Notes under the pieces: model-generated | Told to the model about the DNA's origin: nothing | Database searches by the model: none | What the model saw: the letters and a program-made list of their open reading frames with translations, nothing else | Position numbers and translations under genes: made by a program | From: a virus | Taxonomy: Duplodnaviria > Heunggongvirae > Uroviricota > Caudoviricetes | Virus record (IMG/VR): IMGVR_UViG_2698536369_000025 | Length of the DNA stretch: 14,679 bases | Direction: 5' to 3' (one strand) | Shown here: positions 1,369 through 14,679 of the stretch, piece by piece | How the letters are laid out: each line of letters opens with the position of its first letter | Position numbering within the stretch: the stretch's first letter is position 1

Positions 1369-1444
1369 GCCGATATAGCTCAGTTGGTAGAGCAGCGCAT
1401 TCGTAATGCGAAGGTCGTAGGTTCGACTCCTATTATCGGCACCA
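1369..1444 (+). tRNA. thrW: tRNA-Thr, anticodon CGU, 76 nt including CCA
   Basis: GCCGATATAGCTCAGTTGGTAGAGCAGCGCATTCGTAATGCGAAGGTCGTAGGTTCGACTCCTATTATCGGCACCA. Acceptor stem GCCGATA/TATCGGC, D-loop AGTTGGTAGAGC, T-arm GGTTCGACTCC, 7-nt anticodon loop TTCGTAA giving anticodon CGT, encoded 3' CCA. thrW is a known integration site for P4-type integrases (established knowledge). Confidence 0.93.
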
Positions 1445-1524: not shown

Positions 1525-1610
1525 CGTCTACTTAAGTACCCCAAAATCTACAGTCAATTGGGGGTACTTTTGGGGGTATTTGCTGTTCGGTTTAGTGGAG
1601 GTACCCCCAA
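1525..1610. promoter_or_regulatory. Repeat cluster between thrW and int: GTACCCC(C)AA in both orientations plus a direct repeat GTCTACT(C/T)AAGTA; putative integrase binding sites and/or int promoter-operator
   Basis: GTACCCCAAAA 1536-1546, TTGGGGGTAC 1558-1567 (inverted), GGGGGTA 1572-1578, GTACCCCCAA 1601-1610 abutting the int start. GTCTACTCAAGTA near 1461 and GTCTACTTAAGTA near 1525. Function is inferred from position only. Confidence 0.4.
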
Positions 1611-2825
1611 GTGAAACTCAATGCCCGTCAAATAGACACTGCCAAGCCAAAAGAGAAGGCTTACAAGCTGGCTGATGGTGGTGGTCTGTATCTCTTGGTA
1701 AAACCTAGTGGAGGAAAATATTGGCGCTTCAAGTATCGTGTAGCTGGTAAAGAGAAGCTGTTAGCACTAGGTGTGTATCCTGAAGTTACCTTGGCTGATG
1801 CTCGTGCAAAACGTGAAGAAGCTAAAAGGGGTATCGCTGGGGGTATCGATCCGATGGAAGCGAAACGAGAGGAAAAGATTGCCCGGGAAACGCAGTTAAA
1901 CAACACCTTCAAAGATATTGCCCTTGAGTGGCACAGCAGCAAATTAAAAAAATGGTCTGCTGGTTATGCTTCAGACATCCTCGAAGCCTTCAACAAAGAT
2001 GTGTTCCCTTACATTGGCAAAAAACCAATCGCCGAAATCAAACCACTTGAACTGCTGAATGTGCTGCGGCGCATCGAGGGGCGCGGTGCTACCGAAAAAG
2101 CCAAAAAAGTGAGGCAGCGATGTGGGGAAGTTTTCCGCTATGCAATTGTCACTGGACGTGCTGAGTATAACCCTGCACCGGATCTCACCAGCGCGATGCA
2201 AGGACATGAATCTAATCATTATCCTTTCCTCACAGCCAAAGAATTACCTGATTTTTTCAAGGCATTGTCCAGTTACTCAGGAAGTGCATTGGTTGTTATG
2301 GCGGCTCGTTTACTGATTATCACCGGTTTGCGGACTGGCGAACTGCGCGGTGCATTATGGGATGAAATCGATCTCAACAAGGCTATCTGGGAGATACCTG
2401 CTTCACGGATGAAAATGCGTCGCCCTCATGTAGTGCCTTTGTCTGAGCAGGCTCTTTCGCTTATTGGGCAGATTAAAGAACTAACTGGCAATTATCCGCT
2501 TATGTTTCCCGGCCGTAATGATCCAAGGAAAACAATGAGCGAGGCTAGCATAAACCAAGTATTTAAACGCATCGGCTATAACGGAAAGGTTACTGGTCAT
2601 GGCTTCCGGCACACTATGAGCACCATTTTGCATGAGCAGGGCTATAACACCGCGTGGATAGAGACACAGCTTGCGCACGTCGATAAAAACTCAATTCGTG
2701 GCACATACAACCATGCGCAATATCTGGATGGGCGGCGGGAAATGCTTCAGTGGTACGCTGATTATATGGATTCGCTCGAGCATGGCGGAAATGTGGTGCA
2801 TGGTGAGTTCGGAAAATGCGGGTGA
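1611..2825 (+). CDS. int: Site-specific tyrosine integrase, P4-like family (404 aa)
   Basis: GTG start 1611 preceded by GGAGG 1598-1602. N-terminus AKPKEKAYKLADGGGLYLLVKPSGGKYWRFKYRVAGKEKLLALGVYPEV is the typical P4-integrase N-terminal domain. C-terminal catalytic region carries R (TGLRTGELR), HGFRHT and terminal Y (RGTYNHAQY). Sits directly beside a tRNA gene. Confidence 0.93.
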   Translation: MKLNARQIDTAKPKEKAYKLADGGGLYLLVKPSGGKYWRFKYRVAGKEKLLALGVYPEVTLADARAKREEAKRGIAGGIDPMEAKREEKIARETQLNNTFKDIALEWHSSKLKKWSAGYASDILEAFNKDVFPYIGKKPIAEIKPLELLNVLRRIEGRGATEKAKKVRQRCGEVFRYAIVTGRAEYNPAPDLTSAMQGHESNHYPFLTAKELPDFFKALSSYSGSALVVMAARLLIITGLRTGELRGALWDEIDLNKAIWEIPASRMKMRRPHVVPLSEQALSLIGQIKELTGNYPLMFPGRNDPRKTMSEASINQVFKRIGYNGKVTGHGFRHTMSTILHEQGYNTAWIETQLAHVDKNSIRGTYNHAQYLDGRREMLQWYADYMDSLEHGGNVVHGEFGKCG

Positions 2826-2947
2826 CTGGTTGAGTATACAGTAGTAGACTTTGAGCGACGAAAGAAAAGGCTGTGTCTAGGGTCGCTCCCGAAAATCCGT
2901 ACACCTCGACGGACTGGTACAGCCACTACAGTAGAGGACGCTGAGGT

Positions 2948-3751
2948 GTGCGTATGATTGATATTCATGCCGAATTAAACGAATACAAAAAAGATTTTAT
3001 TTCTTTACGTGAATTTCTTGAGGTCGTGCTTAAGGTCGCTGGTGATGATTATGATGTTTCAGATGTCATAACTTGGATACTCAGGAGAATAAGCGGAGAA
3101 CATATCCGCCTGTACACAGTAAATGAATTTAAGCTGTTGGAATCTTTTTGTAACCCGTATCGGGATGAATTTGATAATGATGTTCTTTATAGAAATCTGA
3201 ATGCGGTTCGGAAACGTGGTTGTTTACCTGGTGAGAGGGATGAAAATGGTTTTCTGGTGTCCGGTTATTGGGAAGATCCCGAATTTGAGAACATTGGATT
3301 TATAAGGGGTGAAATTTTCGCAATTTTTCCCGATGTCCTTGACGCGTTAACGAAGCTGGAAGGCGCTAACTCTTCTGAAAATGACGAGGCACAAGGACGC
3401 GATATTGAAAAGAAAGAGTTGCGTACAGAGGATGATTTATTATCCCAAATCGCAATGCTGGAAAAAGAAAACGCAGAGTTAAGGGCAAGGATAGAGCAGT
3501 TAGAGCAAGAGCGCCCGATACACTTATATAAATACTGGGATAAAGACCCATTAGCTAAGGCTATTGAGATTAGAAACAGAGAGTGGGCCAATTACGATCC
3601 AGAAAATGATTTTGCCACCAGGGGAAATCAAGAAGCGATAACCAGGGAGCTTAAGCAGTGGGGGGCAAGTAATGCACTTGCAACGCTCATAGAGAGGACT
3701 GCCTGCCCTATTAACCGAGACAACAGCCAAAAGAACGCAAAGCCGGATTAA
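2948..3751 (+). CDS. Hypothetical protein, about 265 aa, acidic with a central coiled-coil (LLSQIAMLEKENAELRARIEQLEQER); no recognised domain
   Basis: ORF 2948..3751; the more likely start is ATG 2954, with GAGG 2943-2946 seven nt upstream. Lower GC than flanks (24/60 G+C counted over 3001-3060). Followed by a palindrome plus T-run. Function unknown. Confidence 0.7.
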   Translation: MRMIDIHAELNEYKKDFISLREFLEVVLKVAGDDYDVSDVITWILRRISGEHIRLYTVNEFKLLESFCNPYRDEFDNDVLYRNLNAVRKRGCLPGERDENGFLVSGYWEDPEFENIGFIRGEIFAIFPDVLDALTKLEGANSSENDEAQGRDIEKKELRTEDDLLSQIAMLEKENAELRARIEQLEQERPIHLYKYWDKDPLAKAIEIRNREWANYDPENDFATRGNQEAITRELKQWGASNALATLIERTACPINRDNSQKNAKPD

Positions 3752-3764
3752 CGCACCATACCGC

Positions 3765-3912
3765 ATACCCTGAGGGTGATTTACTGTTACCCTGAGGGTA
3801 TTTTTTTATCTTCCCCGTCAATTTTACCATCACCCTTAGGGTAGATTTCCTCCCGATTACCATCACCCTTAGGGTAGATTTCCTTCCGGTAACCATTAGG
3901 CCTGAGGGTATG
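3765..3912. repeat. Array of near-palindromic ACCCT-N-AGGGT boxes (5 copies) including a roughly 32-bp tandem duplication; first pair plus T7 run may act as terminator of the upstream gene, the rest as operator sites upstream of alpA
   Basis: ACCCTGAGGGT at 3767-3777 and 3789-3799 (followed by T-run 3802-3808); ACCCTTAGGGT at 3832-3842 and 3864-3874 inside the tandem repeat TTACCATCACCCTTAGGGTAGATTTCCT (about 3825-3855 and 3857-3887); half-site CCTGAGGGTA 3901-3910. Confidence 0.6.
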
Positions 3913-3978
3913 AAAATATTCGTTATTTCTGTGCCATGATTACCTCGTCAAATTGAGTAGACGTTATGAGGTAAATAT

Positions 3979-4176
3979 ATGTCAAATACGCTTATTCGTT
4001 TAACAGAAGTTCAGCGTAGAACTGGATATAGCAAGGCATGGATTTATCGCCTTATGGGGCAAGGTAAATTTCCTGCATCAGTTAAAATTGGCTCGCGAGC
4101 TATTGCTTTCGTTGAGAGTGAAATTGACGAGTGGATTAATCAGCGTATTGCGGAATCACGCGGAACAGCTACCTGA
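3979..4176 (+). CDS. alpA: AlpA-family (prophage CP4-57-type) helix-turn-helix transcriptional regulator / excisionase-like protein, 65 aa
   Basis: ATG 3979 with GAGG 3968-3971. Translation MSNTLIRLTEVQRRTGYSKAWIYRLMGQGKFPASVKIGSRAIAFVESEIDEWI is the canonical AlpA pattern (RL.EV...TG.S....Y.....G.FP..VK.G.R...W...E...W). Typical partner of P4-type integrases. Confidence 0.85.
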   Translation: MSNTLIRLTEVQRRTGYSKAWIYRLMGQGKFPASVKIGSRAIAFVESEIDEWINQRIAESRGTAT

Positions 4177-4253
4177 TTAAATGGCTACGGGGCTATTGCC
4201 CCCAGCTATCCACCAGCAAATAAAAGTAACTTAATTCGATAGCAGGAGTTTTT

Positions 4254-5054
4254 ATGAAATTTCCAAAAACGCCCGTACAGGGGCGGGGCTTCGTTCGGCC
4301 TGAAAACCAGAATCTGCAAAATTTCGGCGAAATTATCCCGATTATTTCCGGCGTTATTGGCGGGAGTGAAACCACTATTGTTAGCGCCAGAGCGTTACAT
4401 AAGGCGTTAGGTGTAGGGCGCGTTTTCCGTTCGTGGATCAAGGGGCGCATTGAAGAATACGGGTTCACGGAAGGCGTGGATTATGAGGTTGTTGAATATT
4501 TGAGCCGACCCGATCCGGTGAGCGCAAAATCTCGCCAGCAAACCGCTCTTGAGTACATCATCACAGTGAACATGGCGAAAGAACTGGCGATGGTCGAACG
4601 TACCGAACAGGGCCGCGCCGTTCGCCAGTACTTTATCAAATGCGAGGAGGAGCTACACAAGGTTGCGCCTGTTCGTTCCGCAGCGTTACGCCGGGAACTG
4701 AAAGCCCGTATCACCGTTGCCAGCTACTTTAAGCCGATGTGTGCCGCGCTGGAGGCGTACCGGGCTGAACTGGGTAAAAACACGTTCCAGCACCACTACA
4801 CCACGGAAGCCAATATGCTGGCGCGTATCGTGCTGGGTGGCATGACTGCAAAACAGTGGGCGCAGGCGAACGGCATCACAGGCGAACCACGCGACCACAT
4901 GAGCACGTTGCAGCTTGAGCACCTTTCTTACCTTGAGCAGAGCAATATCACGCTGATTGAGTTAGGCCAGGACTACCACCAGCGGAAAGCTGAATTAATT
5001 CGCCTTTCGCAGCGTTGGTTAGCCCGTCGCATGGAGGAAAACAGCCATGTGTAA
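4254..5054 (+). CDS. Phage antirepressor-like regulatory protein (AntA/Bro-N-like N-terminal domain), 266 aa
   Basis: ATG 4254 with AGGAG 4244-4248; TAA 5052-5054. N-terminal segment TIVSARALHKALGVGRVFRSWIKGRIEEYGFTEGVDYEVV resembles the AntA/Bro-N antirepressor fold (recalled pattern, not searched). Assignment to the antirepressor family is moderate; the CDS call is stronger. Confidence 0.7.
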   Translation: MKFPKTPVQGRGFVRPENQNLQNFGEIIPIISGVIGGSETTIVSARALHKALGVGRVFRSWIKGRIEEYGFTEGVDYEVVEYLSRPDPVSAKSRQQTALEYIITVNMAKELAMVERTEQGRAVRQYFIKCEEELHKVAPVRSAALRRELKARITVASYFKPMCAALEAYRAELGKNTFQHHYTTEANMLARIVLGGMTAKQWAQANGITGEPRDHMSTLQLEHLSYLEQSNITLIELGQDYHQRKAELIRLSQRWLARRMEENSHV

Positions 5055-5324
5055 CGCTCTGACCGTTACAAAAAGAGAAAGCGCCCCGTTGCCGGAGCGC
5101 CTTTGTGAACGAATAGCCTACTGCGCCATATTGCTTACTGTCTACGAGGCAGATTATAGCGTTGTGGTCGCACAGAGTGAAGGCGCTGATCACCGTTACT
5201 ACAGCACGCCAGAAATGCAGAATATTTTGCTGCAAAATGTCGTTGGTCACGCTGTCCGGAAAGCAAAAAATTTTGCTGGTGGCGCGACTGATGCGATTTT
5301 TTCTGGTCGCCCGGTGCTGATCAA

Positions 5325-5627
5325 CTACTCCTGTTCTTTGGCCTTGCGGCGCTGGAGTTCTTCACGCGCGACGGTGACGAGTTGCCCGATCTCCTCGGCA
5401 GCTTTGACACCGATTTTTTCCACCTGCGCCAGTGCATCGAGCGAAGAAACCAGGGGATTTTCTCCTCTTCCTTCTGCCTGGCGGCGAGCGATCTCACCGC
5501 ACATGGCGGTTACTATGAATCCGGCGTTGCTTTCGCCGTCCAGTTTTACGGATTCCATGCCCTCCATAACATCGTGGGGAACCCTGATCGTTGTCATTTG
5601 CGATTTTGCATTTTTGTATACAGACAT
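5325..5627 (-). CDS. Small putative DNA-binding protein (ribbon-helix-helix-like N-terminus TTIRVPHDVMEGM), 100 aa, convergent with the upstream gene and divergent from the small-ORF operon
   Basis: Minus-strand ATG at 5627-5625, stop (CTA on plus) at 5325-5327; GGTGA-like SD upstream on the minus strand. Sits next to an operator-like repeat array. It fully overlaps a longer plus-strand ORF (5047..6201) judged spurious in this part. Confidence 0.6.
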   Translation of the reverse strand: MSVYKNAKSQMTTIRVPHDVMEGMESVKLDGESNAGFIVTAMCGEIARRQAEGRGENPLVSSLDALAQVEKIGVKAAEEIGQLVTVAREELQRRKAKEQE

Positions 5628-5835
5628 AGTTAATCACCAATTTGTTATGTGTATATCACTATACACAAAAGTGAGATATAAAAACACTTGCAATGTATAT
5701 CACCACAATATAATGTGTATCTCACATGGAGGTCGCTATGTATCTCACAATGAGCGATTCATAAAAACGACGAAACCCGGCAGTGCGCGAACACTAACCG
5801 GGCTTCTAACCAAACCGTTAAATGAGGTAACGATT
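5628..5835. promoter_or_regulatory. Divergent promoter/operator region with five copies of TGTAT(A/C)TCAC in both orientations, including a perfect 8-4-8 palindrome
   Basis: Palindrome TGTGTATA-tcac-TATACACA 5648-5667; GTGAGATATA 5671-5680 (inverted copy); TGTATATCAC 5694-5703; TGTATCTCAC 5717-5726 and 5739-5748. Lies between the minus-strand RHH-like gene and the plus-strand operon start at 5836. Confidence 0.55.
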
Positions 5836-6201
5836 ATGGCTGGAACACAGCATACCCAAACTCACCCTAAATTTATATACACCTTCCTGGCGGTGCACCG
5901 TGATTGCATGGCTGACGGTAAAAACACTGTACACGTAGCCGCTGATACGCTGGTGGATGCCTGCAAGATGCTCAATGATATGGGCTATATCTCGGCAACA
6001 TGGAAAGGGCGCGAAGAAAACACGCTGTTTATTCAGAAATGCGAAAACAATTTTATATGGCGTTTTATCGCCCTGAGCACAGCACAACCGCGTGTAATTC
6101 ACATCGAGGCCACCAGCGAACAGGAAGCACGCCAGCAATCTCCTGATGGCTGCGTGATGGTATTCGCTGCCCGCATTCGCCAGGAGGTGGAACATGTGTA
6201 A
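5836..6201 (+). CDS. Hypothetical protein, 121 aa, first gene of a coupled small-ORF operon
   Basis: ATG 5836 with GAGG 5824-5827 eight nt upstream; TAA 6199-6201. Same frame as the long ORF 5047..6201, but only this part has an RBS and does not overlap the minus-strand gene. Confidence 0.7.
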   Translation: MAGTQHTQTHPKFIYTFLAVHRDCMADGKNTVHVAADTLVDACKMLNDMGYISATWKGREENTLFIQKCENNFIWRFIALSTAQPRVIHIEATSEQEARQQSPDGCVMVFAARIRQEVEHV

Positions 6202-6418
6202 TGCAACATGGCCTGATGCAGCGGTAGACGCTATCAAAACGCTGATGGATTCACTTGTTGAGATTTCTGCTATCGCTGGTGTGGCGCATAAACACGCAGC
6301 CAGAGAATCAGAATGCATCTCCCATTATTTAGCATTTGTGCAGCTAAAAGCCGATCAGGCACTGGATAAGGCCGGAAAAATTATCATGGCTGATGTGCAG
6401 GAGGTGCACCATGCATAA
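6194..6418 (+). CDS. Hypothetical small protein, 74 aa
   Basis: ATG 6194 overlaps the stop of the previous gene; AGGAGGTGG 6182-6190 upstream. Translational coupling pattern. Confidence 0.6.
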   Translation: MCNATWPDAAVDAIKTLMDSLVEISAIAGVAHKHAARESECISHYLAFVQLKADQALDKAGKIIMADVQEVHHA

Positions 6419-6776
6419 CCTGTCAATTTCTGACCTTAACAGCATTCAGTTTGACGAGAAATTTACCGGGCAGTTGCTGGTCAATGTGGAGAACGGGCGC
6501 ATAGTGCGTAATTACCACCTGCCGGATGGTGCAATTGCCGGAAGCGTTGAAGCATTGCTGGAACTGGCGGAACGTGCGCGACTGATTAAGCCGTCAACGA
6601 GCCATCACGATGATGATCTGCATTTTACCGGGCGTATGGTGAGTCACTACGAAAACGGCGTTGAAGTATCCCGCGAACGGCTGCGTGATGATTGCTGTTT
6701 CGGCACACTGCCGGAATTTATCGAGTTGCTGAACAGTTGCGGTTATCAGGTCATTCAGGGGGGTAAACATGCGTGA
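6411..6776 (+). CDS. Hypothetical protein, 121 aa
   Basis: ATG 6411 with AGGAGG 6399-6404 six nt upstream; overlaps the previous stop (6416-6418). The six-frame ORF begins at 6393 but lacks an RBS there. Confidence 0.65.
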   Translation: MHNLSISDLNSIQFDEKFTGQLLVNVENGRIVRNYHLPDGAIAGSVEALLELAERARLIKPSTSHHDDDLHFTGRMVSHYENGVEVSRERLRDDCCFGTLPEFIELLNSCGYQVIQGGKHA

Positions 6777-7002
6777 TGATCGTTTTAATTCCCTGAAACG
6801 GGAATTTGATGGCGCACCGGAAGATGCAGCGGGCGCATTGTTGAGCGTTGCTGACATGATGAAAGCTGCATATTTTCTTATCAATACCAGTGGCTACAAG
6901 TCAGAGGGTGAAATGATTCTTAGTATTGCGTCGGACTATGCGGAATATGTGGCAGAGACGCGTTACAGAAGAAAATTCACGGAGGATGTAAGCCATGCAT
7001 AA
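6769..7002 (+). CDS. Hypothetical small protein, 77 aa
   Basis: ATG 6769 overlapping the previous stop (TGA 6774-6776); G-rich SD 6758-6763. Confidence 0.6.
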   Translation: MRDDRFNSLKREFDGAPEDAAGALLSVADMMKAAYFLINTSGYKSEGEMILSIASDYAEYVAETRYRRKFTEDVSHA

Positions 7003-7195
7003 TCATGAAGCGCATGTACCCGTAGTGCTTAATGTGCCAGATGATTTCACCGGACGCGTACTGGTTTACCTGGATAAAGGGAAAGTGAAATCACAATGCC
7101 GACTGAAAAGTAATGAGATTGTTGGTTCTCCTGAATTTTTTTCTGAACTTTGTATTCGTGCGGAAATAAAACCGGAACTGCTGACAGGAAAATAA
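6995..7195 (+). CDS. Hypothetical small protein, 66 aa
   Basis: ATG 6995 with GGAGGA 6981-6986 eight nt upstream; overlaps the previous stop (7000-7002). Confidence 0.55.
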   Translation: MHNHEAHVPVVLNVPDDFTGRVLVYLDKGKVKSQCRLKSNEIVGSPEFFSELCIRAEIKPELLTGK

Positions 7196-7199
7196 AACC

Positions 7200-7514
7200 A
7201 TGAAAAAGAAAAATTCTGGCTTTACTGCCAGCGGCCTCTCTCGGCCTGAAATCCGCCCCGGCGATATTTTCCGGGATAAATACGGCAGCACGATAACGGT
7301 AAAAACCGTCGATGATTTTCGCGTGACCTATATCCGCGAAGGTTATACGCATCCCTGCGTGTCGTCACATATGCGCTTTGAAAGGGAATTCATCCTGGTA
7401 AGTAAAGCGCCACTAGCAGAATTAAGCGACATCGACAAAATCATGAGCGTCACGGGCGCGGAACGCATCAGGACAGTACGTGAAATTATTCGTGAGCGGG
7501 GAGGTAAGAAGTGA
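7200..7514 (+). CDS. Hypothetical protein, 104 aa
   Basis: ATG 7200 four nt after the previous stop; its stop TGA 7512-7514 overlaps the GTG start of the replication gene. Confidence 0.6.
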   Translation: MKKKNSGFTASGLSRPEIRPGDIFRDKYGSTITVKTVDDFRVTYIREGYTHPCVSSHMRFEREFILVSKAPLAELSDIDKIMSVTGAERIRTVREIIRERGGKK

Positions 7515-9643
7515 AAAACGCACCGAATTTAAAATATCAGCCGAAGGATAAATTCACCGAGGTAATCATTTTTGCCGGGACGGATGCTTACGCCCATGCT
7601 CAACACTGGATTGAAAGCGAAGGACGAAAACACGGCGATAACGTGCCACCTGTTTATCTGGGGCCAAAGCAACTGGCAGACCTGGCGAATATCCGCATTA
7701 TTGACGCGAAACGCCGCTTTGCACGTGTCTATCTCGCGGGGGAGATAGAACCAATCCAGATCAATGCTATCGCTGAAAAGCTGGCGCTGGCTGGCGTACA
7801 GGAGGCGAAATTATACAAAGGTATCACCGACCGGGAGCCGGAGAACTGGCACGACTACCTGCAACGGATCCGCGAACAGGCCGAACGCGGGGAAACCATG
7901 ACGGAGGAAGTCAGGAGAGTGGGGGGATTGCCCGGAAGAACAGATCCCATGAAACCGCATATCACCGAAAAAGATGGTGCGCTCTGGTATGTCGAGCCAA
8001 TACCCAATACCAGAGCAGAGGAGCTGAATCATAAGGAAACCTGGTTGAGTGACAGGATGCGCACAGCGGGTATTGGTAATGACGGTCGGGAAGCGTATCT
8101 GATAATTGAAATGATCCCGGAAGGAACACAGAAAATTATTTACGAAGCGATGCCGCGCAATGAAATCGGTATGCCAGCAGGATGGGCGAGGTTACGTGGA
8201 CGGGGTGTTGCAATCACCACCAGCGCCCATTTACTGAATAAACTGGCGGAATACCTGCAACGTCAGGGAGATCGTACTGTGTGGGAGGTCACATCAACAG
8301 CCGGATGGCATTGTGGAGCCTATGTTATGCCAGATGGTGAGGTGATTGGTGTACCGGATCGTCCAGTGGCATTCTGTGGCGGATCTGCAGCCATCAAAGG
8401 CTATATCGTCAGGGGGACGGTACAGGAATGGAGGAATAATGTCGCCTCCCTGATGAGAGGTAATCACTCAATGATGCTTGGGGTACTGGTCGGACTGGCA
8501 GCACCCCTTAATTCTCTTGTGGGCGGAAGTTGTTTTGGTATCCACCTTTTCGCGCAGTCGTCAGCAGGGAAAACCACGACGGTGGAAGCTGCCACCAGTC
8601 TTTATGGCGATCCTGAAATGCTCAAACTTTCGTGGGATGCCACCCGGCACGGACTGACGGTGGAAGCTGCCGCACGTAATGATGGCTTTATCCCCATTGA
8701 TGAAATTGGTCAGGGAGGAAGGATTAATGACATCGCGCAATCCGCCTACAGCCTGTTTAACGGTGTGGGGAGAATTCAGGGACGAAAAGATGGCGGCAAT
8801 CGTGCAGTAATGCGCTGGAAAATAGCGGCACTAAGCACAGGGGAAGAAGATTTTGAGACCTTCCTGTTAAAAGGGGGGATCACCCCAAAAGCCGGGCAAC
8901 TGGTGCGGCTGCTAAGCGTTCCCTTTACCGATACAACGGTTTTTAACGGGTATGACGATGGTGATCAACATGCCAGAGCAATAAAGCGACTTTCATCAAA
9001 TTATTGTGGAGCTGCGGGGCGTGAGTGGGTGCGCTGGTTATCCGCTCATAAGGAACTGGCTATTAACACCACTTCCGATAAAGAAAATACCTGGCTGGGA
9101 AATCTGCCTGAAAATGCATCGTCACAGGTCAGACGTGTGGCTTCACGCTTTGCCATGCTGGATGCGGCCGGAGAACTTGCCACCGCAATTACTGGCTGGA
9201 CAGCCGAAGAATGCCGGGCAGCAACACAACGGGCTTTTGATGACTGGTTACAGGATTTCGGGCTGGAAAACCGGGAAAAATACCAGGTCATCAGCCGCGC
9301 CCGTGATTTTATTCAGCGCCATGCCCTGAGCCGTTTTCAGCCTTATACCTACGGGAAAAGCAATGGAAATATGGATAACCACTATGCATCCCGTATAAAC
9401 AACCTTGCAGGGTATCTTGTCAGTGGTAAGCGTGAGGATGGAAAACCCGAATATCACATTATCCCGTCAGTGTTTGATGGCGAAATTTTATGCGGCATAT
9501 CCAGGAACTTTGGGTGTCAGGCGCTGGAGGAAGCCGGAATGCTGGTTTGTGCAGAACCCGGTCGCTGGACATCGAAAACGGTGAAGATTAACGGAACACA
9601 GCAGCGATTTATCGTGCTGATTGACCAGGCTGAAGACGAATAA
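7511..9643 (+). CDS. Putative replication initiation protein of the element: P-loop NTPase, primase/helicase-like (DUF927-type), 710 aa
   Basis: GTG 7511 with GGGGAGG 7494-7500. Walker A HLFAQSSAGKTT and Walker B-like GFIPIDEIGQ in the central region; conserved TAGWH motif; comparable in size and position to P4 alpha-type proteins. An iteron array lies immediately downstream. Family assignment is from recalled motifs. Confidence 0.8.
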   Translation: MKNAPNLKYQPKDKFTEVIIFAGTDAYAHAQHWIESEGRKHGDNVPPVYLGPKQLADLANIRIIDAKRRFARVYLAGEIEPIQINAIAEKLALAGVQEAKLYKGITDREPENWHDYLQRIREQAERGETMTEEVRRVGGLPGRTDPMKPHITEKDGALWYVEPIPNTRAEELNHKETWLSDRMRTAGIGNDGREAYLIIEMIPEGTQKIIYEAMPRNEIGMPAGWARLRGRGVAITTSAHLLNKLAEYLQRQGDRTVWEVTSTAGWHCGAYVMPDGEVIGVPDRPVAFCGGSAAIKGYIVRGTVQEWRNNVASLMRGNHSMMLGVLVGLAAPLNSLVGGSCFGIHLFAQSSAGKTTTVEAATSLYGDPEMLKLSWDATRHGLTVEAAARNDGFIPIDEIGQGGRINDIAQSAYSLFNGVGRIQGRKDGGNRAVMRWKIAALSTGEEDFETFLLKGGITPKAGQLVRLLSVPFTDTTVFNGYDDGDQHARAIKRLSSNYCGAAGREWVRWLSAHKELAINTTSDKENTWLGNLPENASSQVRRVASRFAMLDAAGELATAITGWTAEECRAATQRAFDDWLQDFGLENREKYQVISRARDFIQRHALSRFQPYTYGKSNGNMDNHYASRINNLAGYLVSGKREDGKPEYHIIPSVFDGEILCGISRNFGCQALEEAGMLVCAEPGRWTSKTVKINGTQQRFIVLIDQAEDE

Positions 9644-9674
9644 AACCGCCTACGCTCGCAGAGGGTCAAAAATC

Positions 9675-9949
9675 GCGGGATATGCGGGATATCGGGATAT
9701 GAAAAATATATTATATAGATATCAATTACTTATGTGTCGTTATCGTATCCCGCCATATCCCGCCGTATCCCGGTATTTTGGTTTACGAATGGTTTAAAAA
9801 CAAACGAAATCACTGTATCCCGGAACGTATCCCGCAATATGTTATTGATGCATAAGCAAAAAAAAACTTACCGGGATATGGCGGGATACGAAAAATCGCA
9901 TAACATAATGAAAAATAAGTTGTTTTTTGTTTGTATCCCGATATCCCGG
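9675..9949. repeat. Iteron array / putative origin of replication: about 12 copies of CGGGATA(T/C) in direct and inverted orientation flanking an AT-rich stretch
   Basis: GCGGGATAT at 9675-9683 and 9684-9692, CGGGATAT 9693-9700; AT-rich 9701-9744; inverted copies GTATCCCGCC 9745-9754, ATATCCCGCC 9755-9764, GTATCCCGG 9765-9773, 9815-9823, GTATCCCGC 9827-9835; CCGGGATAT 9871-9879, GGCGGGATA 9880-9888; GTATCCCG 9933-9940, ATATCCCGG 9941-9949. Confidence 0.6.
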
Positions 9950-10103
9950 TAAAAAATGGTTTTTTACGCCTTATAGAGTACAGAAAAGTGATTGCTCAAA
10001 TTTTGTATTACAGGTGGCTACCGTCAGCCATCCGACCTGGAAAAGGCATAAAAGCAGATATGTCATTTTGACAATCAGACTGTTTTGATGATTACACGCC
10101 GAT

Positions 10104-10661
10104 ATGACGGCAACAATGATGGGGAAGAGCATGCCAAAGCTGACCATTAACAGAAAGCCAAAAGGCATTTACGGCACGCCGCAGAAAACGACGCAGGCGG
10201 CACAGGAGCAGGATAAAACCACATCGGCACATAAAGTGATGCCCGGTAACCAGAAAGCGCAGCAGAAGCCCACAGGGGCGACACCGTGGCGGCATATGAC
10301 CAAACGGCAGCGCAAAAACCGCAGGCGCGTTAACCGCCTCACTGAGTTGTGGCCTGAATTATTCAGCCGGGAAGCACCGAAGCCGCTTAAGGTGGGGATA
10401 TTCGACGACCTGATGCAGGATCTCGCCGTCAGGGGGCTGGCATTCGGGCCAGGGGCATTACGTGCGACGCTGGCATCTTATGCGCAGTGTCCGCGCTATT
10501 ACCGCGCCTTAATGGCTGGTGGGGTACGCTACGACCTGAAAGGCCAGCCGTGCGGCGAGGTGACACCACAGGAACAACAGGACGCAGAAACGCGGCTGGT
10601 GGCGCTGAATGAGAAGCGCAAACGTCAGCGCCGGGCAGCAAAGGAGAAAACAGGTGCATGA
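10104..10661 (+). CDS. ProQ/FinO-family RNA-binding protein (185 aa as drawn; true start may be an internal ATG near 10131)
   Basis: Segment PLKVGIFDDLMQDL...LRATLASYAQCPRYYRALMAGGVRYDLKGQPCGEV parallels the ProQ N-terminal FinO-like domain (PLKIGIF.DL......LR.AL..Y......Y.......R.DL.G.PCGE); basic N- and C-terminal tails. Confidence 0.8.
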   Translation: MTATMMGKSMPKLTINRKPKGIYGTPQKTTQAAQEQDKTTSAHKVMPGNQKAQQKPTGATPWRHMTKRQRKNRRRVNRLTELWPELFSREAPKPLKVGIFDDLMQDLAVRGLAFGPGALRATLASYAQCPRYYRALMAGGVRYDLKGQPCGEVTPQEQQDAETRLVALNEKRKRQRRAAKEKTGA

Positions 10662-10945
10662 TTCACGACAGCAAAGCGGAAGCACTGGAAGCGCGTGGTC
10701 TGTACCGGAGAGCGGCGGAACGGTGGGCTGAGGTCATTATGCTGGCGAACGGTGACAAGGCACGGGAACAGGCGGCAAAGCGCCGTGCGGAATGTATCCG
10801 CAAGGCAGCACGCCCACCAGCAAAGCAGGATAATTTCGGGGAGATGCGCGAAACCATCAGCCGGGCACATGCCGGAATGGGATTACATCAGCCCAATGGT
10901 AAGGCATTCAGGAAATATCCTGGATCGAAAAATTGCAGTCAGTGA
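10658..10945 (+). CDS. PerC-family transcriptional regulator-like protein, 95 aa
   Basis: ATG 10658 overlaps the stop of the previous gene (ATGA). N-terminal AEALEARGLYRRAAERWAEVIM matches the PerC/Pch motif (LE.KGLWRRAA..W..VM), recalled from memory. Confidence 0.65.
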   Translation: MIHDSKAEALEARGLYRRAAERWAEVIMLANGDKAREQAAKRRAECIRKAARPPAKQDNFGEMRETISRAHAGMGLHQPNGKAFRKYPGSKNCSQ

Positions 10946-11055
10946 CGGAGGCCGGGATTTTTCCCGGCCTTATTGCATTTCATTAATTGCAATATTTATT
11001 GCTATCATTTCATTTTGTGCAATTGTTGTGGTTGTTATTATTCGGGAGAAAAATC

Positions 11056-11223
11056 ATGAAAGGTCACGGAGTAAAGCCAGTTTTACTTTCCCGGAGGCAG
11101 ATTGAAGCCCTGCAACGTATCCAGGACGAAGAGCGTCAGAAATCTGTGCTTGGTGTGGCGCCGTCGATTCATGTTATTGCCCGGCAACTGATGGATAAGG
11201 CACTTAAAGAGGTGAGACTGTGA
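11056..11223 (+). CDS. Hypothetical small protein, 55 aa (MKGHGVKPVLLSRRQIEALQRIQDEE...)
   Basis: ATG 11056 with GGGAG 11044-11048; stop overlaps the next start. The longer six-frame ORF from 10987 has a hydrophobic, RBS-less leader, so the shorter form is preferred. Confidence 0.55.
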   Translation: MKGHGVKPVLLSRRQIEALQRIQDEERQKSVLGVAPSIHVIARQLMDKALKEVRL

Positions 11224-11492
11224 AATTAAATATCAGAGTGGATAAACGCCAGCTATGGCAGAAAAAAGAGAACAGCGAGGCATTCAGGGCGTTGCTGGTG
11301 GAAAATCTTCAGCACCGGTTCAGTGGAGAGTTGCCTGATGCGCTGGGGAAGAAACTGGAATCTCTGACAGTGGAAATTGGCGATTATGGTTTTGTTGATG
11401 TTGAAAGCACGACAGCCAACACAGAAATCGTAAAACAGGTCGTCAACGATGTAATGAAAACCACGCTTAGTCAGCCATCCTGGCGTAACTGA
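11220..11492 (+). CDS. Hypothetical protein, 90 aa
   Basis: GTG 11220 overlapping the previous stop (GTGA); followed by a GC-rich hairpin at 11499-11519. Confidence 0.55.
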   Translation: MKLNIRVDKRQLWQKKENSEAFRALLVENLQHRFSGELPDALGKKLESLTVEIGDYGFVDVESTTANTEIVKQVVNDVMKTTLSQPSWRN

Positions 11493-11498
11493 ATCAAC

Positions 11499-11520
11499 AA
11501 GGGGCAGTTATTGCCCCTTT
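11499..11520 (+). terminator. Putative intrinsic terminator hairpin
   Basis: AAGGGGCA (11499-11506), loop GTTAT, TGCCCCTT (11512-11519), then T. The U-tract is short, so efficiency is uncertain. Confidence 0.4.
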
Positions 11521-11590
11521 CCTCCATATCCACAACGCATTCCTTTTCCGCATGAAATTATTTTTATCGTATATGCATGAGGTGAGCCAC

Positions 11591-12118
11591 ATGTTGATGA
11601 GTAAAGCTGAATACGCCAAACACAAAGGCGTAAGCCGCCAGACAGTTTACGACTGGATCGAGAAAGGCGAAGTGGTTATGTCCGGTAAAAAAATCGATGT
11701 GGAAGCGACAGAGCAGCGGAACAGCCCACCAGCACAGGGAAAAGACGCAGTTTCTGAAATGTGGCCAGAAAGAACGCTGGAAATGACGTGGGGCGAGTTC
11801 TGGAAAGCAGTTAAGGCCAGAGACGGTAAAATCCCTGCACCAGTAACGGACGATGACATACGGCAGCGTGTGCTGAATGCAGCCGGGGAATTAGGCTGGG
11901 AAGTGCAATTTCTTGATGGTGGTGCTATCTGCCTTGAGGATTGCGACGGGCAGCATTACTTTGAACAATACAATTTGCGGGGTAATGCCTGGCTGGCAAT
12001 TCGTATGTTGCGTTGTGAACTATGCTATGTTGCCAGCGATTGTCCCGATGAACAGGACACATGGAGTGAGGCAGGACTAAACGCCCTGGCTGAATGGGAA
12101 AAATCAGGCCATCAATGA
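11591..12118 (+). CDS. Putative HTH DNA-binding protein with Cys-rich C-terminal region, about 175 aa
   Basis: Preferred start ATG 11591 with GAGGTGAG 11579-11586 (the six-frame ORF starts at 11552 without an RBS). N-terminus SKAEYAKHKGVSRQTVYDWIEKGEV is a helix-turn-helix of the excisionase/MerR-like type. C-terminus has CLEDCDGQH...CELCYVASDC. TGA 12116-12118. Confidence 0.7.
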   Translation: MLMSKAEYAKHKGVSRQTVYDWIEKGEVVMSGKKIDVEATEQRNSPPAQGKDAVSEMWPERTLEMTWGEFWKAVKARDGKIPAPVTDDDIRQRVLNAAGELGWEVQFLDGGAICLEDCDGQHYFEQYNLRGNAWLAIRMLRCELCYVASDCPDEQDTWSEAGLNALAEWEKSGHQ

Positions 12119-12122
12119 CCTC

Positions 12123-12326
12123 AAAAAGTGTCAAGTTGAGCAGCTTTCCAGGTTGACACTTTACACTCTGAACGCGAAAAAGTGTCAACCTCGCTGTAAA
12201 CCCCGTCGTTACTGGCTTTGCGCCAGATTTACCACGTCAAAAAACCGAAAAATCGCGAAAAGTGTCAAGTTGCCATGCTTAGAAATGCTAAGGTTTGATA
12301 AGGTTTTTCGCGAAAAAGTGTCAACC
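12123..12326. repeat. Array of five AAAGTGTCAA boxes (two flavours: ...TGTCAAGTTG and ...TGTCAACC), one inverted; putative operator/iteron sites
   Basis: AAAAAGTGTCAAGTTG 12123-12138; inverted GGTTGACACTTT 12151-12162; GCGAAAAAGTGTCAACC 12174-12190; CGCGAAAAGTGTCAAGTTG 12254-12272; CGCGAAAAAGTGTCAACC 12309-12326. Lies between the HTH gene and a small ORF, upstream of the AT-rich cargo. Confidence 0.6.
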
Positions 12327-12356
12327 AGCCCCCTAAGATTTCCTAAGGTGTAAACC

Positions 12357-12536
12357 ATGACCATCACCGAAGCCGATATGCTGGAGATGATCCGCAGCAT
12401 TGCCGAAATCAAACAATCAGCAAGCAAAATTAACAGGTGTTCAGCGCCTGTTTCCGTTGTGCTGCAACAGGAACGCCACCAGCAGGATGATGTGAGGCCG
12501 TATCAGTGGAAGAAACTGGACAGGCTGCGACGGTGA
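12357..12536 (+). CDS. Hypothetical small protein, 59 aa (MTITEADMLEMIRSIAEIKQSASKINR...); below the size cutoff of the supplied ORF track
   Basis: ATG 12357 with AAGGTG six nt upstream; TGA 12534-12536; host-like GC; last gene before the compositional drop. Confidence 0.45.
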   Translation: MTITEADMLEMIRSIAEIKQSASKINRCSAPVSVVLQQERHQQDDVRPYQWKKLDRLRR

Positions 12537-12929
12537 GCGGAGCGTTACGGTAAGCCAACAGCCAAGCCAAACATTAAGTCTACAGGTAAGGTTGTTTTTT
12601 TGCAGGTGGCATTAATTTGTATGTTGGTTTGAGGAGCATTTTTACTGAGACTGTCTGTTCTGGTTAGTTTTTTCGTATGATATACACCTCATCAAAATTG
12701 TCCGACAGTGTGGAGCGGCGTGGCGGGGAGAGTATTGTGTGCTAGAGATTATAGTTACACTTTAATCTACGACACGATCGTAATTTTTCACTCTTCTTTT
12801 CAGATAAGCTACTACTGAGTTCACAAAAATAACATTATTTTATATCCATGCGTTATCTTTATCTGATATTAATGTGCTGTTCGGTCTTTTTTTGACTGCA
12901 AACGGCATGAATCATATTAAGGAAACCAA

Positions 12930-13091
12930 GTGAAAATATCTTTTTTTGGCGTAAATAACTTTAGGACAATATCAGGTGGCATTGGTAATAATAGAATAAT
13001 ATTTAAAGATACCAATACGCTTTTCATTTACGGGGCAAATAATGCTGGAAAATCAACTTATTTAAAAGCATATATGTTTTTTTTACAGTAA
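12930..13091 (+). CDS. N-terminal fragment (53 codons) of an OLD-family ABC-type ATPase carrying the Walker A motif; out of frame with the downstream part because of a T8 run
   Basis: GTG 12930 with AAGGAAA 12919-12925. Translation VKISFFGVNNFRTISGGIGNNRIIFKDTNTLFIYGANNAGKSTYLKAYMFFLQ* has the same opening architecture as P2 Old/GajA-type ATPases (as recalled). TAA 13089-13091 follows the T8 run 13077-13084. Confidence 0.6.
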   Translation: MKISFFGVNNFRTISGGIGNNRIIFKDTNTLFIYGANNAGKSTYLKAYMFFLQ

Positions 13092-13173
13092 TGAAAAACC
13101 TATCATTGATGATTTCTTTAAACGAGACGACAATAATTCTATTGAGTTCGAATTAGAAGTTCAACTTGATGAC

Positions 13174-14679
13174 TTGGATAAAGAAAGAATAGAAGCCAAA
13201 GCACCGAAGCAAAAGGAAAGTTATAAGAAGTATTTAAATAATGATTTTATTAGAATTAAGAAAGTATGGAGTAAAAATGGAACAAGAATAGAGGATAAAA
13301 ATTATACTTATGATTATAGTAAAGGAGATAGCGGCGAGTATGATGAAGTTGGATATGCAACAATTGGTTTGCATCAGGTCTTCCAATCTTGTTTGCCAAA
13401 ACCTGTATTTATAAAGGCTATGCCAACAGAGGAAGAAGCTAAGAAGATTCTTAATGAAATCCTAAAGATGATGGCTGAAAATACACTTAAAACATCTGAT
13501 CTTGATGAATTAAAAGCAGCTCAGAATAAAATAAAAGAATTACAAGACAAAATGTATGATCCAGAATTAATTGAAACCTATCAGAATTCAGTTAACGGAT
13601 ACTTTAACAAGATATTCGGTGATACTGCTATATGCTTCAAAGATCAAAAAGATAGGGTTGTTTGGACGGAGAATAAGCTTGGCAGAGATTTTGAAATTGA
13701 GTTTATGAAAAAAAATAGCCAAGGGGAGTTTGATGGCAATATCCCTTCAAGTTATAGCAGTGTAGGTCATGGAACTATTAGGACTGCAATATTTACATTA
13801 TTATTGATGAGAGATGTAGCAGAGCGTTTTGAAAGAAGGCTTGGACGTAAAGATTACATGGTTCTGTTTGAGGAGCCTGAGCTATTTCTCTATCCTAGAA
13901 TGGTGAAGGAACTTCGTGAATTGATTTATCAGGTGAGCACTGAAGACCTTCCATATCAAGTACTTTGTGCCTCACATTCATCTTCCATGATAGATCTTTC
14001 AAAGCCTAAATCTTCGATAATACGATTAGTTAATAATTCTACTGGAACTAAATCATATCAAATTAATGATCAATTTTTGAAGGATGCAAAAGGCATTGCT
14101 ACAAATGCTGAACTTAAACAAGAAATGTATGAAGTTTTGAGGTTCAACCCTTATATTTGTGAATCATTCTACGCTGATGAGGTACTTCTGATTGAGGGGC
14201 CAACAGAAGAAATAATATGTAGAGCTTTTTTACAAGAAACCCCATCAGATAAATCTATATTCGTATTGAACTGTGGTACGGTTAATAACATTCCTTTTTA
14301 TCAAAAAATCTTCTCAAGGTTTAATATAAAATATCATGTGATCTGTGATACAGATAAAGCAGAAATAGTTACCGTAGATCAATCTGGCAATGCAGATTTT
14401 GATTCTGGAATACAGAAAACAATTTCAGAACAGTATAGGAATGATTGTACTGCAATGAATGGTAATATAGGACTACTTCGAACTCATAACATTACATTTG
14501 AACCTGCTCATCAAGATGTTAGTATTCCTGACTTTTTGAGATTTGTTGATTGCGGTGATAGAAGCAAACCATTTAATGCAAACTTGTACTGGAAGGATAT
14601 TTTAAGGCCAAATATATCACATCAAGATATAAATAAAGTGCCTATAATTAAGTATTTGAATGAAATAATAGCACATTAA
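13174..14679 (+). CDS. OLD-family (overcoming lysogenisation defect) ATPase-Toprim nuclease-like protein, C-terminal about 500 aa; candidate anti-phage defence gene; frameshifted relative to its N-terminal Walker A fragment
   Basis: Open frame runs back to 13066 without a stop; the track start at 13174 is TTG. Motifs: GHGTIRTA (Q-loop/signature-like), VLFEEPELFLYP (Walker B), CASHSS (H-loop), then Toprim-like LLIEGPTEE and a DTD acidic motif (VICDTDK). AT-rich (15/60 and 21/60 G+C in two counted 60-nt samples, against 32/60 in the replication gene). TAA is the last codon of the window. Confidence 0.8.
   Translation: MDKERIEAKAPKQKESYKKYLNNDFIRIKKVWSKNGTRIEDKNYTYDYSKGDSGEYDEVGYATIGLHQVFQSCLPKPVFIKAMPTEEEAKKILNEILKMMAENTLKTSDLDELKAAQNKIKELQDKMYDPELIETYQNSVNGYFNKIFGDTAICFKDQKDRVVWTENKLGRDFEIEFMKKNSQGEFDGNIPSSYSSVGHGTIRTAIFTLLLMRDVAERFERRLGRKDYMVLFEEPELFLYPRMVKELRELIYQVSTEDLPYQVLCASHSSSMIDLSKPKSSIIRLVNNSTGTKSYQINDQFLKDAKGIATNAELKQEMYEVLRFNPYICESFYADEVLLIEGPTEEIICRAFLQETPSDKSIFVLNCGTVNNIPFYQKIFSRFNIKYHVICDTDKAEIVTVDQSGNADFDSGIQKTISEQYRNDCTAMNGNIGLLRTHNITFEPAHQDVSIPDFLRFVDCGDRSKPFNANLYWKDILRPNISHQDINKVPIIKYLNEIIAH

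What the first reader, a model, noticed from the sequence alone, without database searches (positions are those of the whole stretch)
13060..13100. One-base frameshift in a T8 homopolymer splits the OLD-like gene after the Walker A motif
Frame 0 from GTG 12930 reads ...GANNAGKSTYLKAYMFFLQ and stops at TAA 13089-13091. The frame that carries the rest of the protein is open from 13066 and reads FFYSNEKPIIDDFFKRDD... Both pass through TTTTTTTT at 13077-13084. With seven T the two join seamlessly (…KAYMFFYSNEKPII…). This is either a homopolymer sequencing/assembly error, a recent inactivating mutation of a costly defence gene, or a slipped-strand on/off switch. The last two are biologically interesting.
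Basis: seen in the sequence. Interest (0 to 1): 0.6.

Follow-up and report, generated by a model that had tools for sequence, protein, structure and literature searches.

The report
Recent frameshift breaks OLD defence nuclease
One extra T in a run of seven has split an otherwise perfect copy of a phage-defence nuclease gene in one E. coli strain; this is an ordinary, very recent, strain-specific knock-out (possibly leaky), not an evolved on/off switch.

Summary
Removing one T gives a 582-aa class 1 OLD-family ATPase-Toprim nuclease. That protein is identical to one found intact on many E. coli contigs, and the repaired gene is 0/1749 nt different from five independent intact copies.

The window comes from E. 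coli draft GCA_001284545.1. An independent Logan re-assembly of run ERR137786 also has T8, so the extra T is not an assembler artefact. All 22 other sources examined (55-100% protein identity, several genera and mobile elements) have exactly T7. T7 is simply TTT-TTT-TAy, which encodes a conserved Phe-Phe-Tyr motif in an AT-rich gene.

Homopolymer content matches a synonymous-shuffle expectation. No downstream start has a ribosome-binding site, and no recoding signal is present. Other broken alleles in public data are hit at other homopolymers (A8, A5, T5).

Verdict: this is a recent replication-slippage insertion that inactivates cargo of a thrW island. About 10% rescue by transcriptional slippage on T8 is plausible from published reporter data. 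A phase-variation switch is not supported. Low interest.

The parts
12930..14679 (+). Frameshifted class 1 OLD-family nuclease gene, a pseudogene in this strain. With one T removed it encodes 582 aa.
   Evidence: the repaired product is identical to P0001. Pfam AAA_15/AAA_21 plus OLD-like_TOPRIM; PADLOC Old 6.1e-63.
12919..12923 (+). Shine-Dalgarno-like AAGGA, 6 nt upstream of the GTG start at 12930.
   Evidence: The start position matches the ATG of the 23AR0998 orthologue.
12930..13091 (+). The 53-aa N-terminal stub ORF (annotated in RefSeq as WP_261289681.1), ending at the premature TAA 13089-13091.
13032..13055 (+). Walker A / P-loop GANNAGKS (residues 35-42, Lys41), stranded on the stub.
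   Evidence: Walker A lysine is needed for class 1 OLD function in P2 Old and Vc OLD (PMC10568477, PMC12392090).
13077..13084 (.). T8 homopolymer, the site of the +1 T insertion. It is T7 (TTT TTT TAy = Phe50-Phe51-Tyr52) in all 22 other sources.
13066..14679 (+). Downstream reading frame (+1) carrying the sequence from just after the tract (Tyr52) to residue 582. Gene callers annotate it from TTG 13174 as a 501-aa product (CTT98451.1 / WP_261289682.1).
13858..13881 (+). Walker B region MVLFEEPE (residues 310-317).
   Evidence: It aligns with the TsOLD (6P74) motif vIiEEPEmyLhP.
14185..14211 (+). Toprim glutamate motif LLIEGPTEE (residues 419-427).
   Evidence: It aligns with LLvEG of TsOLD.
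14341..14355 (+). Toprim DxD motif ICDTD (residues 471-475).
   Evidence: It aligns with vhDeD of TsOLD.
13708..13715 (.). A8 run, intact in this window. It is the site of A8-to-A7 frameshifts in other public alleles (P0152, P0133, P0124).
1369..1444 (+). tRNA-Thr(CGT), the thrW-type attachment site of the island that carries the OLD gene as its last cargo gene. The integrase is at 1611-2825.
   Evidence: The shared island backbone ends at about 12,325-12,680 in other E. coli.

Best explanation
The gene is a single-gene (class 1) OLD-family ATPase-Toprim nuclease. It is the last, variable cargo gene of an integrase-bearing, satellite-like island inserted at tRNA-Thr next to proA in E. coli. 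In the sequenced strain (GCA_001284545.1) replication slippage added one T to a T7 run. That run exists only because it spells a conserved Phe-Phe-Tyr motif with AT-rich codons.

The insertion shifts the frame after residue 51, so translation stops two codons later. The P-loop is left on a 53-aa stub. Walker B, the Toprim catalytic residues and the rest of the protein sit in a frame with no usable start. The defence gene is therefore off, or at most strongly down, in this strain.

The event is very recent, because nothing else in the gene or its upstream region has changed. Low-level full-length protein could still arise if RNA polymerase drops one U on the U8 run. That step is inferred from published E. 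coli reporter data and is not shown here.

Shown: the frameshift, its ancestral state, its uniqueness, its recency and the family assignment. Inferred: loss of function, replication slippage as the cause, and any leakiness.
For: 1. T8 against T7: 22 distinct sources have T7, and only the window's strain has T8.
2. Two independent assemblies of that strain agree on T8 and are 100% identical over 7,148 bp.
3. The contig shows no general homopolymer noise. Against its nearest relative L008 it has 1 gap plus 9 mismatches in 12,596 bp. The error-prone assembly L015 has 10 gaps in 5.3 kb.
4. The repaired protein is identical to P0001. The intact 582-aa E. coli variants P0001-P0015 sit on about 257 contigs.
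5. The repaired gene differs at 0/1749 nt from L005, L006, L008, L009 and L011, and the 393 nt upstream are identical to L006, L007, L008 and L012.
6. The stub is recorded on a single contig.
7. Family: PADLOC Old 6.1e-63; Pfam ATPase plus OLD-like_TOPRIM; TsOLD 6P74 is the only PDB hit.
8. No downstream start has a Shine-Dalgarno sequence. The first start is TTG at residue 82, after the P-loop.
9. The Walker A lysine is required in P2 Old and Vc OLD.
10. Indel rate rises exponentially with run length in E. coli (PMC8510543).
Against: - Raw reads were not inspected. A systematic read-level error, or a mutation that arose during laboratory culture of the isolate, cannot be excluded.
- ERR137786 is assumed, not proven, to be the run behind the GenBank assembly. 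If so, the two assemblies are independent in software but not in data.
- Loss of function is inferred, not measured.
- Published reporter data give about 10% frame restoration by E. coli RNA polymerase on T8 (PMC6260861), so the allele may be hypomorphic rather than null.
Confidence: 0.78

Rival explanations
1. Sequencing artefact: the strain really has T7, and the extra T is a read-level homopolymer miscall or a change introduced during library preparation.
For: Homopolymer errors do exist for this very gene in public data. L015 (GCA_020556445.1) has T7-to-T6 at 12941 and T5-to-T4 at 14295, with 10 gaps in 5.3 kb. P0081, P0134 and P0135 on ~4.78 Mb contigs are reproduced by single-base indels in A5 and T5 runs. 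T8 is seen in only one strain.
Against: Two different assemblers give T8 with an unbroken contig through the tract. The source contig has only this one gap in 12.6 kb against its nearest relative, unlike error-prone assemblies. The run accession dates from the short-read era, when 8-nt homopolymer miscalls at consensus level were rare; this last point is from general knowledge and the platform was not verified.
Confidence: 0.12
2. Evolved slipped-strand contingency locus: the T tract is a phase-variation switch that toggles the costly nuclease on (T7) and off (T8 or T6) at high frequency.
For: - The tract lies early in the gene, just after the P-loop, so any length change is fully inactivating and reversible.
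- Homopolymer frameshifts recur in this gene. A8-to-A7 occurs on two allele backgrounds, P0133 (Ser28) and P0152 (Thr28).
- Reversible 7-nt homopolymer switches exist in other bacteria, for example M. tuberculosis glpK (listed).
Against: - The tract is T7 in 22 of 22 other sources down to 55% protein identity. It is dictated by a conserved FFY motif, and the less AT-rich Vibrio copies lose the run by using other codons or residues.
- The run count equals the synonymous-shuffle expectation, and T7 arises at this site in 53% of shuffles.
- The recurrent breaks are spread over five different runs and are not focused on this one.
- Seven or eight bases is short for a contingency tract in a mismatch-repair-proficient enterobacterium (general knowledge).
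- Both assemblies run unbroken through the tract. This hints that the reads hold no large T7/T8 mixture, but it is an inference.
Confidence: 0.04
3. Programmed recoding: the two-ORF layout is the intended gene structure, read through by +1 or -2 ribosomal frameshifting on U UUU UUA or by programmed transcriptional slippage.
For: UUU UUU UUA contains a U6A-type slippery heptamer. With U8, a -2 shift would land in the correct frame; U6A can support -2 shifts (PMC3458567, listed). E. coli RNA polymerase can delete a U on T8.
Against: No homologue has the two-ORF arrangement, and all are single 577-589-aa ORFs. There is no stimulatory structure downstream (MFE z = -0.16) and no Rfam hit at the site. 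A simple -1 shift enters the wrong frame. The arrangement is unique to one strain that is otherwise identical to intact alleles.
Confidence: 0.02
4. Split but functional: the 53-aa P-loop stub and a re-initiated C-terminal fragment work together, or the C-terminal fragment works alone.
For: RefSeq annotates both pieces as proteins (WP_261289681.1 and WP_261289682.1). For E. coli YbjD, a different lone OLD protein, the Toprim domain is reported as dispensable (abstract of PMC13261556), so not all domains are always needed.
Against: The first in-frame start is a TTG at residue 82 with no Shine-Dalgarno sequence. The first ATG is at residue 164 and its AAGG lies only 2 nt upstream. The fragment would lack Walker A, which is required in P2 Old and Vc OLD, and the same YbjD report says the ATPase domain is essential.
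Confidence: 0.03

Closest known systems
Class 1 OLD-family nucleases (P2 Old, UniProt P13520; Thermus scotoductus OLD, PDB 6P74; Vibrio cholerae Vc OLD)
   Same: [quoted passage not shown]
- Lone gene with no adjacent helicase or reverse transcriptase partner.
- Carried by mobile elements at defence hotspots, as old is in P2.
- Length of 582 aa, close to P2 Old.
   Different: - Only 23.7% identity to P2 Old over 34% of its length. The match to TsOLD is E = 3.5e-6 over the Walker B to Toprim part.
- This clade has not been tested experimentally.
- It is carried by a thrW satellite-like island and by P4-like satellites, not by P2.
- In this window the gene is broken.
Homopolymer frameshift pseudogenes partly rescued by transcriptional slippage (for example Citrobacter rodentium tssM, PMC4256274; mboIIM2 +T372 T8 mutant, PMC6260861; cases in Baranov et al. 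2005, PMC1088944)
   Same: A single-base indel in an A/T run disrupts the ORF close to a premature stop. The run length (T8, sense strand) and the direction needed (loss of one U) match the reporter in which E. coli RNA polymerase restored about 10% expression.
   Different: No expression data exist for this locus. The frameshift is not conserved in any relative, whereas retained slippage-dependent genes show a conserved frameshifted arrangement.
Simple-sequence contingency loci (phase-variable genes of Neisseria, Haemophilus and Campylobacter; M. tuberculosis glpK 7C tract)
   Same: A mononucleotide run near the 5' end of a gene whose product may be costly. A one-base length change gives reversible on/off states in principle.
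   Different: Tract length is invariant (T7) across 22 sources and is set by a conserved FFY motif. The gene shows no enrichment of runs, and the host has mismatch repair. This works like an ordinary mutation, not a tuned switch.
Gabija GajA (class 2 OLD)
   Same: Same two-domain architecture. Weaker PADLOC GajA hits, 1.7e-19 and below.
   Different: No GajB/UvrD-like helicase lies next to the gene in any of 12 loci. The Old model scores far better (211 against 68 bits).

Membership tests
OLD family nucleases (general) | [quoted passage not shown] | tested here: met
   Pfam AAA_15 2.1e-20 and AAA_21 1.3e-14. GANNAGKS at residues 35-42 and MVLFEEPE at 310-317. Walker B aligns with TsOLD.
OLD family nucleases (general) | C-terminal Toprim domain with a conserved acidic cluster (Glu and DxD) | tested here: met
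   Pfam OLD-like_TOPRIM 2.6e-14, residues 413-475. LLIEG and DTD align with TsOLD LLvEG and DeD.
Class 1 OLD | Lone gene: no UvrD/PcrA/Rep-like helicase immediately downstream (class 2) and no retron reverse transcriptase plus ncRNA partner (class 3). Definition from PMC10568477 and PMC7049728. | tested here: met
   Gene lists of L001-L012 show the downstream neighbours are LysR/pao genes, an integrase or small ORFs. In the source strain a UG5 reverse-transcriptase-nitrilase gene lies about 2 kb downstream on the opposite strand. It belongs to a 6.7 kb insert that intact-OLD relatives lack, so it is not a conserved partner.
Class 1 OLD | Best profile match to Old rather than to GajA, AriA or retron OLD models | tested here: met
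   PADLOC Old 211.5 bits against the best GajA at 68.1 and AriA at 67.8 bits.
Class 1 OLD | ATP-dependent nuclease activity and anti-phage protection | not testable with these tools
   This needs biochemistry and plaque assays. No characterised close homologue was found; P2 Old is 23.7% identical over 34% of the length.
Phase-variable contingency locus | Tract length polymorphic among close relatives or within populations | tested here: not met
   T7 in 22 of 22 other sources. T8 occurs only in one strain. Within-population heterogeneity could not be tested.
Phase-variable contingency locus | Repeat tract longer or more frequent than coding and composition require | tested here: not met
   Synonymous shuffle: 3 observed against 2.48 +/- 1.18 runs of 7 or more (P = 0.49). 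T7 arises at this site in 53% of shuffles, and it encodes a conserved FFY motif.
Programmed frameshift / recoding gene | Two-frame arrangement conserved in homologues | tested here: not met
   Full-length homologues are single ORFs of 577-589 aa.
Programmed frameshift / recoding gene | Stimulatory element (downstream structure or upstream SD-like sequence) at the shift site | tested here: not met
   Fold of 13086-13170 gives -11.4 kcal/mol, z = -0.16. No Rfam match at the site.

The most novel reading that the evidence does not exclude
The T8 allele may be a dimmed state of the nuclease rather than a dead gene. E. coli RNA polymerase would drop one U on the U8 run in a few percent of transcripts; a published reporter gives about 10% on T8. 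That would yield a low dose of full-length OLD, with lower self-toxicity and some retained defence. DNA-level T8-to-T7 slippage could restore full expression under phage pressure. Together with the recurrent A8-to-A7 alleles, homopolymers in AT-rich, horizontally acquired defence genes would then act as incidental, reversible dosage valves.
Probability: 0.12. Interest if true: 0.45.

Novelty: new member of a known kind. Interest (0 to 1): 0.15.

Why it matters
The finding matters little by itself. It is one more strain-specific homopolymer frameshift in an accessory gene, and RefSeq already annotates the two halves.

It is a clean example of how quickly mobile defence cargo is lost. The gene is otherwise base-perfect. 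In the same strain it sits next to a newly acquired block with a UG5 reverse-transcriptase-nitrilase gene and an AbiE pair, which fits the idea of rapid turnover at defence hotspots.

A practical point follows. Defence-system censuses that count domains would still score this strain as OLD-positive through the 501-aa fragment.

The intact 582-aa protein belongs to an uncharacterised class 1 OLD clade found in E. coli, Yersinia, Enterobacter, Klebsiella and other enterobacteria, with relatives at about 63-65% identity in Vibrio. It would be a reasonable candidate for functional testing, and the natural T8 allele could serve as a built-in negative control.

Tried and rejected
- **Other broken alleles:** The DNA of the A8-to-A7 alleles could therefore not be read. 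I reproduced their protein tails by simulating single-base indels instead.
- **Run-length mutation rates:** Lee et al. 2012 (PNAS) is not held. Only the qualitative statement from PMC8510543 is used.
- **Promoter and terminator scan of 12300-13300:** nothing above shuffle expectation, and no clear promoter for the gene on the + strand.
- **Rfam scan of 12400-13400:** only a sub-threshold C0299 hit at 12402-12475, well upstream of the gene and unrelated to the tract.
- **-1 ribosomal frameshift on U UUU UUA:** rejected because it enters frame 2, which stops after about 25 codons.
- **Close kinship to P2 Old:** rejected. The match is 23.7% identity over a third of the protein.
- **Platform of ERR137786:** not verified. 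No literature search for the accession was made.
- **Structure prediction:** not run, because it would not bear on the frameshift question.

Full report
**1.

Reading the window confirms each stated coordinate.
- Positions 13077-13084 are eight T.
- The frame that starts at GTG 12930 has an AAGGA six bases upstream. It encodes 53 residues, includes the P-loop GANNAGKS (13032-13055) and ends at TAA 13089-13091.
- The +1 frame opens at 13066 and runs to the TAA that forms the last three bases of the window (14679).
- Removing one T fuses the two frames into a 582-aa protein reading ...KAYMFFYSNEKPII...
- No ORF of 40 aa or more lies on the opposite strand over the tract.

**2. What the gene is**

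- The repaired protein matches Pfam AAA_15 and AAA_21 (ABC-type ATPase) and OLD-like_TOPRIM.
- Its best PADLOC model is Old (6.1e-63, 211 bits). GajA and AriA models score 68 bits or less.
- The only solved structure found by sequence is the class 1 OLD protein of Thermus scotoductus, 6P74. The alignment covers Walker B (MVLFEEPE), the Toprim glutamate (LLIEG) and the DxD motif (DTD).
- P2 Old is a distant relative, at 23.7% identity over 34% of the protein.
- None of the 12 loci with readable neighbours has a UvrD-like helicase or a retron next to the gene. By the published context-based definition (PMC10568477) this is a class 1, lone OLD gene.

**3. Where it sits**

- The window is E. coli chromosome. 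It runs from proA (1-1254) through tRNA-Thr(CGT) at 1369-1444 to an island with a tyrosine integrase, AntA, a DUF927 primase, ProQ/FinO and PerC.
- Many E. coli strains share this backbone up to about 12,325-12,680. The OLD gene lies beyond that point, has 32% GC against 49% for the rest of the window and is the last gene. It is therefore variable cargo.
- The same gene at 87.7% nucleotide identity occupies the psu-integrase interval of a P4-like satellite at ssrA in another E. coli strain. It also occurs on IMG/VR contigs. It is shuffled between mobile elements in the way known defence genes are.

**4. T7 is the ancestral, functional state and T8 is unique**

- The window is an exact piece of contig CYBM01000015.1 of E. 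coli draft assembly GCA_001284545.1.
- The 53-aa stub is recorded on that one contig only.
- The repaired protein is identical to P0001. Intact 582-aa E. coli variants (P0001-P0015) are recorded on about 257 contigs.
- I read the tract in 22 distinct other sources, and every one has exactly T7. They are:
  - eleven E. coli loci;
  - one further E. coli genome;
  - Phytobacter, Citrobacter youngae, an Enterobacter, an Oceanispirochaeta MAG and an Aliarcobacter MAG;
  - three viral-collection contigs;
  - two metagenome contigs.
- The run is TTT TTT TAy and encodes a conserved Phe-Phe-Tyr motif.
- The two Vibrio homologues (36-37% GC) read His-Phe-Tyr and Tyr-Phe-Tyr and have no run. A Nonlabens homologue has Tyr-Tyr-Ala there.

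**5. The tract is not special**

- Shuffling synonymous codons within the repaired gene gives 2.48 +/- 1.18 runs of 7 or more, against 3 observed (P = 0.49).
- The same shuffling recreates T7 at this site in 53% of trials. The gene uses TTT 26 times and TTC 10 times.
- The run is therefore a by-product of AT-rich coding of a conserved motif.

**6. Real change or artefact?**

- An independent Logan assembly of run ERR137786 (L014) carries the same 501-aa downstream ORF. It is 100% identical to the GenBank contig over 7,148 bp and has T8. This excludes an error specific to one assembler.
- The source contig differs from its nearest relative (L008) by nine substitutions and this single gap over 12,596 bp.
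- L015, a 4.78 Mb contig of GCA_020556445.1, shows 10 gaps in 5.3 kb. The three that fall inside the gene are all homopolymer deletions. That is what a noisy assembly looks like, and the window's source does not look like it.
- I could not see the reads, so a read-level or culture-level artefact keeps a modest probability (0.12).

**7. How recent**

- The repaired gene differs at 0 of 1749 positions from the intact gene in five loci (L005, L006, L008, L009, L011). These loci have different downstream flanks, and some have different island backbones.
- The 393 bases upstream are identical to four loci.
- Nothing else has decayed, so the insertion is the latest event at the locus.

**8. Consequence**

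- The P-loop lysine (K41) stays on the stub.
- The downstream frame has no start with a ribosome-binding site. The first is TTG at residue 82. The first ATG is at residue 164 and has AAGG only 2 nt upstream.
- The Walker A lysine is needed for P2 Old toxicity in recBC cells and for phage defence by Vc OLD (PMC10568477 and PMC12392090).
- Loss of function is therefore the expected outcome. This is an inference.

**9. Recoding options**

- A -1 ribosomal shift on U UUU UUA enters the wrong frame.
- A +1 or -2 shift would be productive. However, there is no downstream structure (z = -0.16), no Rfam element at the site and no conservation of the split layout.
- Unprogrammed transcriptional slippage is a realistic source of leak. 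In a gfp reporter that needs one nucleotide deleted, E. coli RNA polymerase restored about 10% of in-frame expression on T8, and the enzyme is biased toward poly(T) (PMC6260861).
- Whether that applies in this sequence context is untested.

**10. The switch hypothesis**

It fails the two tests I could run: tract-length polymorphism among relatives, and enrichment of repeats.

Other broken alleles in public data are all reproduced exactly by single-base indels, but at other runs:
- A8 to A7 at 13708 in P0152, P0133 and P0124, on two allele backgrounds;
- an A5 insertion near 13273 in P0135;
- an A5 deletion near 13646 in P0134;
- a T5 deletion near 14295 in P0081.

The last three sit on ~4.78 Mb contigs. 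The one whose DNA I could read (L015) carries many homopolymer gaps, so those three alleles are probably sequencing errors.

This pattern is generic homopolymer fragility, which rises exponentially with run length in E. coli (PMC8510543). It is not a dedicated tract.

**11. Verdict**

This is a real, ordinary, very recent, strain-specific frameshift that disables, or strongly dims, a class 1 OLD-family defence gene on a thrW island. It is a new example of a known kind of event in a known kind of gene. Interest is low. The only mildly novel reading left open is a leaky, reversible low-dose state produced by transcriptional and replicational slippage.

Noticed in passing
L003 12597-19304 (source contig, directly downstream of the window's end; outside the window): A block of about 6.7 kb is absent from the closest relatives L007 and L008. 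It carries a 1069-aa UG5-type reverse-transcriptase-nitrilase (DRT) gene (PADLOC E = 0), a Phage_ASH gene, a 156-aa ORF with no family match, and an AbiEi/AbiEii pair. The strain with the broken OLD gene has therefore gained other defence cargo right beside it.
   Followed up: partly
window 13708-13715 (A8 run): This run is intact here. Public proteins P0152, P0133 and P0124 are exactly what deletion of one A from it produces (a 277-aa product ending ...EFMKKIAKGSLMAISLQVIAV). They occur on two allele backgrounds (Thr28 and Ser28) and come from Logan, ENA and NCBI sources. This suggests recurrent independent hits. Their DNA could not be fetched.
   Followed up: partly
L015 (GCA_020556445.1, 4.78 Mb contig), gene region: This assembly has 10 single-base gaps in 5.3 kb relative to the window's source, including T7-to-T6 at window 12941 and T5-to-T4 at 14295. 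That is the likely signature of long-read homopolymer error. It explains the database fragments P0081, P0134 and P0135, which all start at Met49.
   Followed up: yes
L002 15218-16966 (E. coli 23AR0998): An orthologue of the OLD gene (87.7% nucleotide identity, T7, ATG start) lies between the psu/delta genes and the integrase of a P4-like satellite inserted at ssrA. The same cargo gene therefore occupies the defence hotspots of two unrelated mobile element types.
   Followed up: partly
window 12930-14679 compared with 1-12700: The OLD gene has 32% GC against 49% for the rest of the window, consistent with foreign origin. Homologues from Vibrio, spirochaete, Aliarcobacter and Nonlabens genomes are also 27-37% GC.
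   Followed up: partly
window 12402-12475 (+): A weak match to the Rfam sRNA family C0299 (21.7 bits against a gathering score of 40; E = 0.18). It is probably chance.
   Followed up: no
window 5047-6201 (+): A 384-aa ORF appears in the mechanical ORF list. The source contig's gene calls do not include it; they place a 100-aa minus-strand gene and a 121-aa plus-strand gene in that region. Only a sub-threshold Pfam hit was found (DUF5845). The coding status is unclear.
   Followed up: no
H33/H34, Rhizobium phages RHph_Y3_56_1 and RHph_Y3_1, 6756-8100: The OLD-like region of these phages matched in two pieces and is annotated as two separate features ('putative ATP-dependent endonuclease protein' and 'TOPRIM domain-containing protein'). 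This may be another split OLD gene or a true two-gene layout.
   Followed up: no
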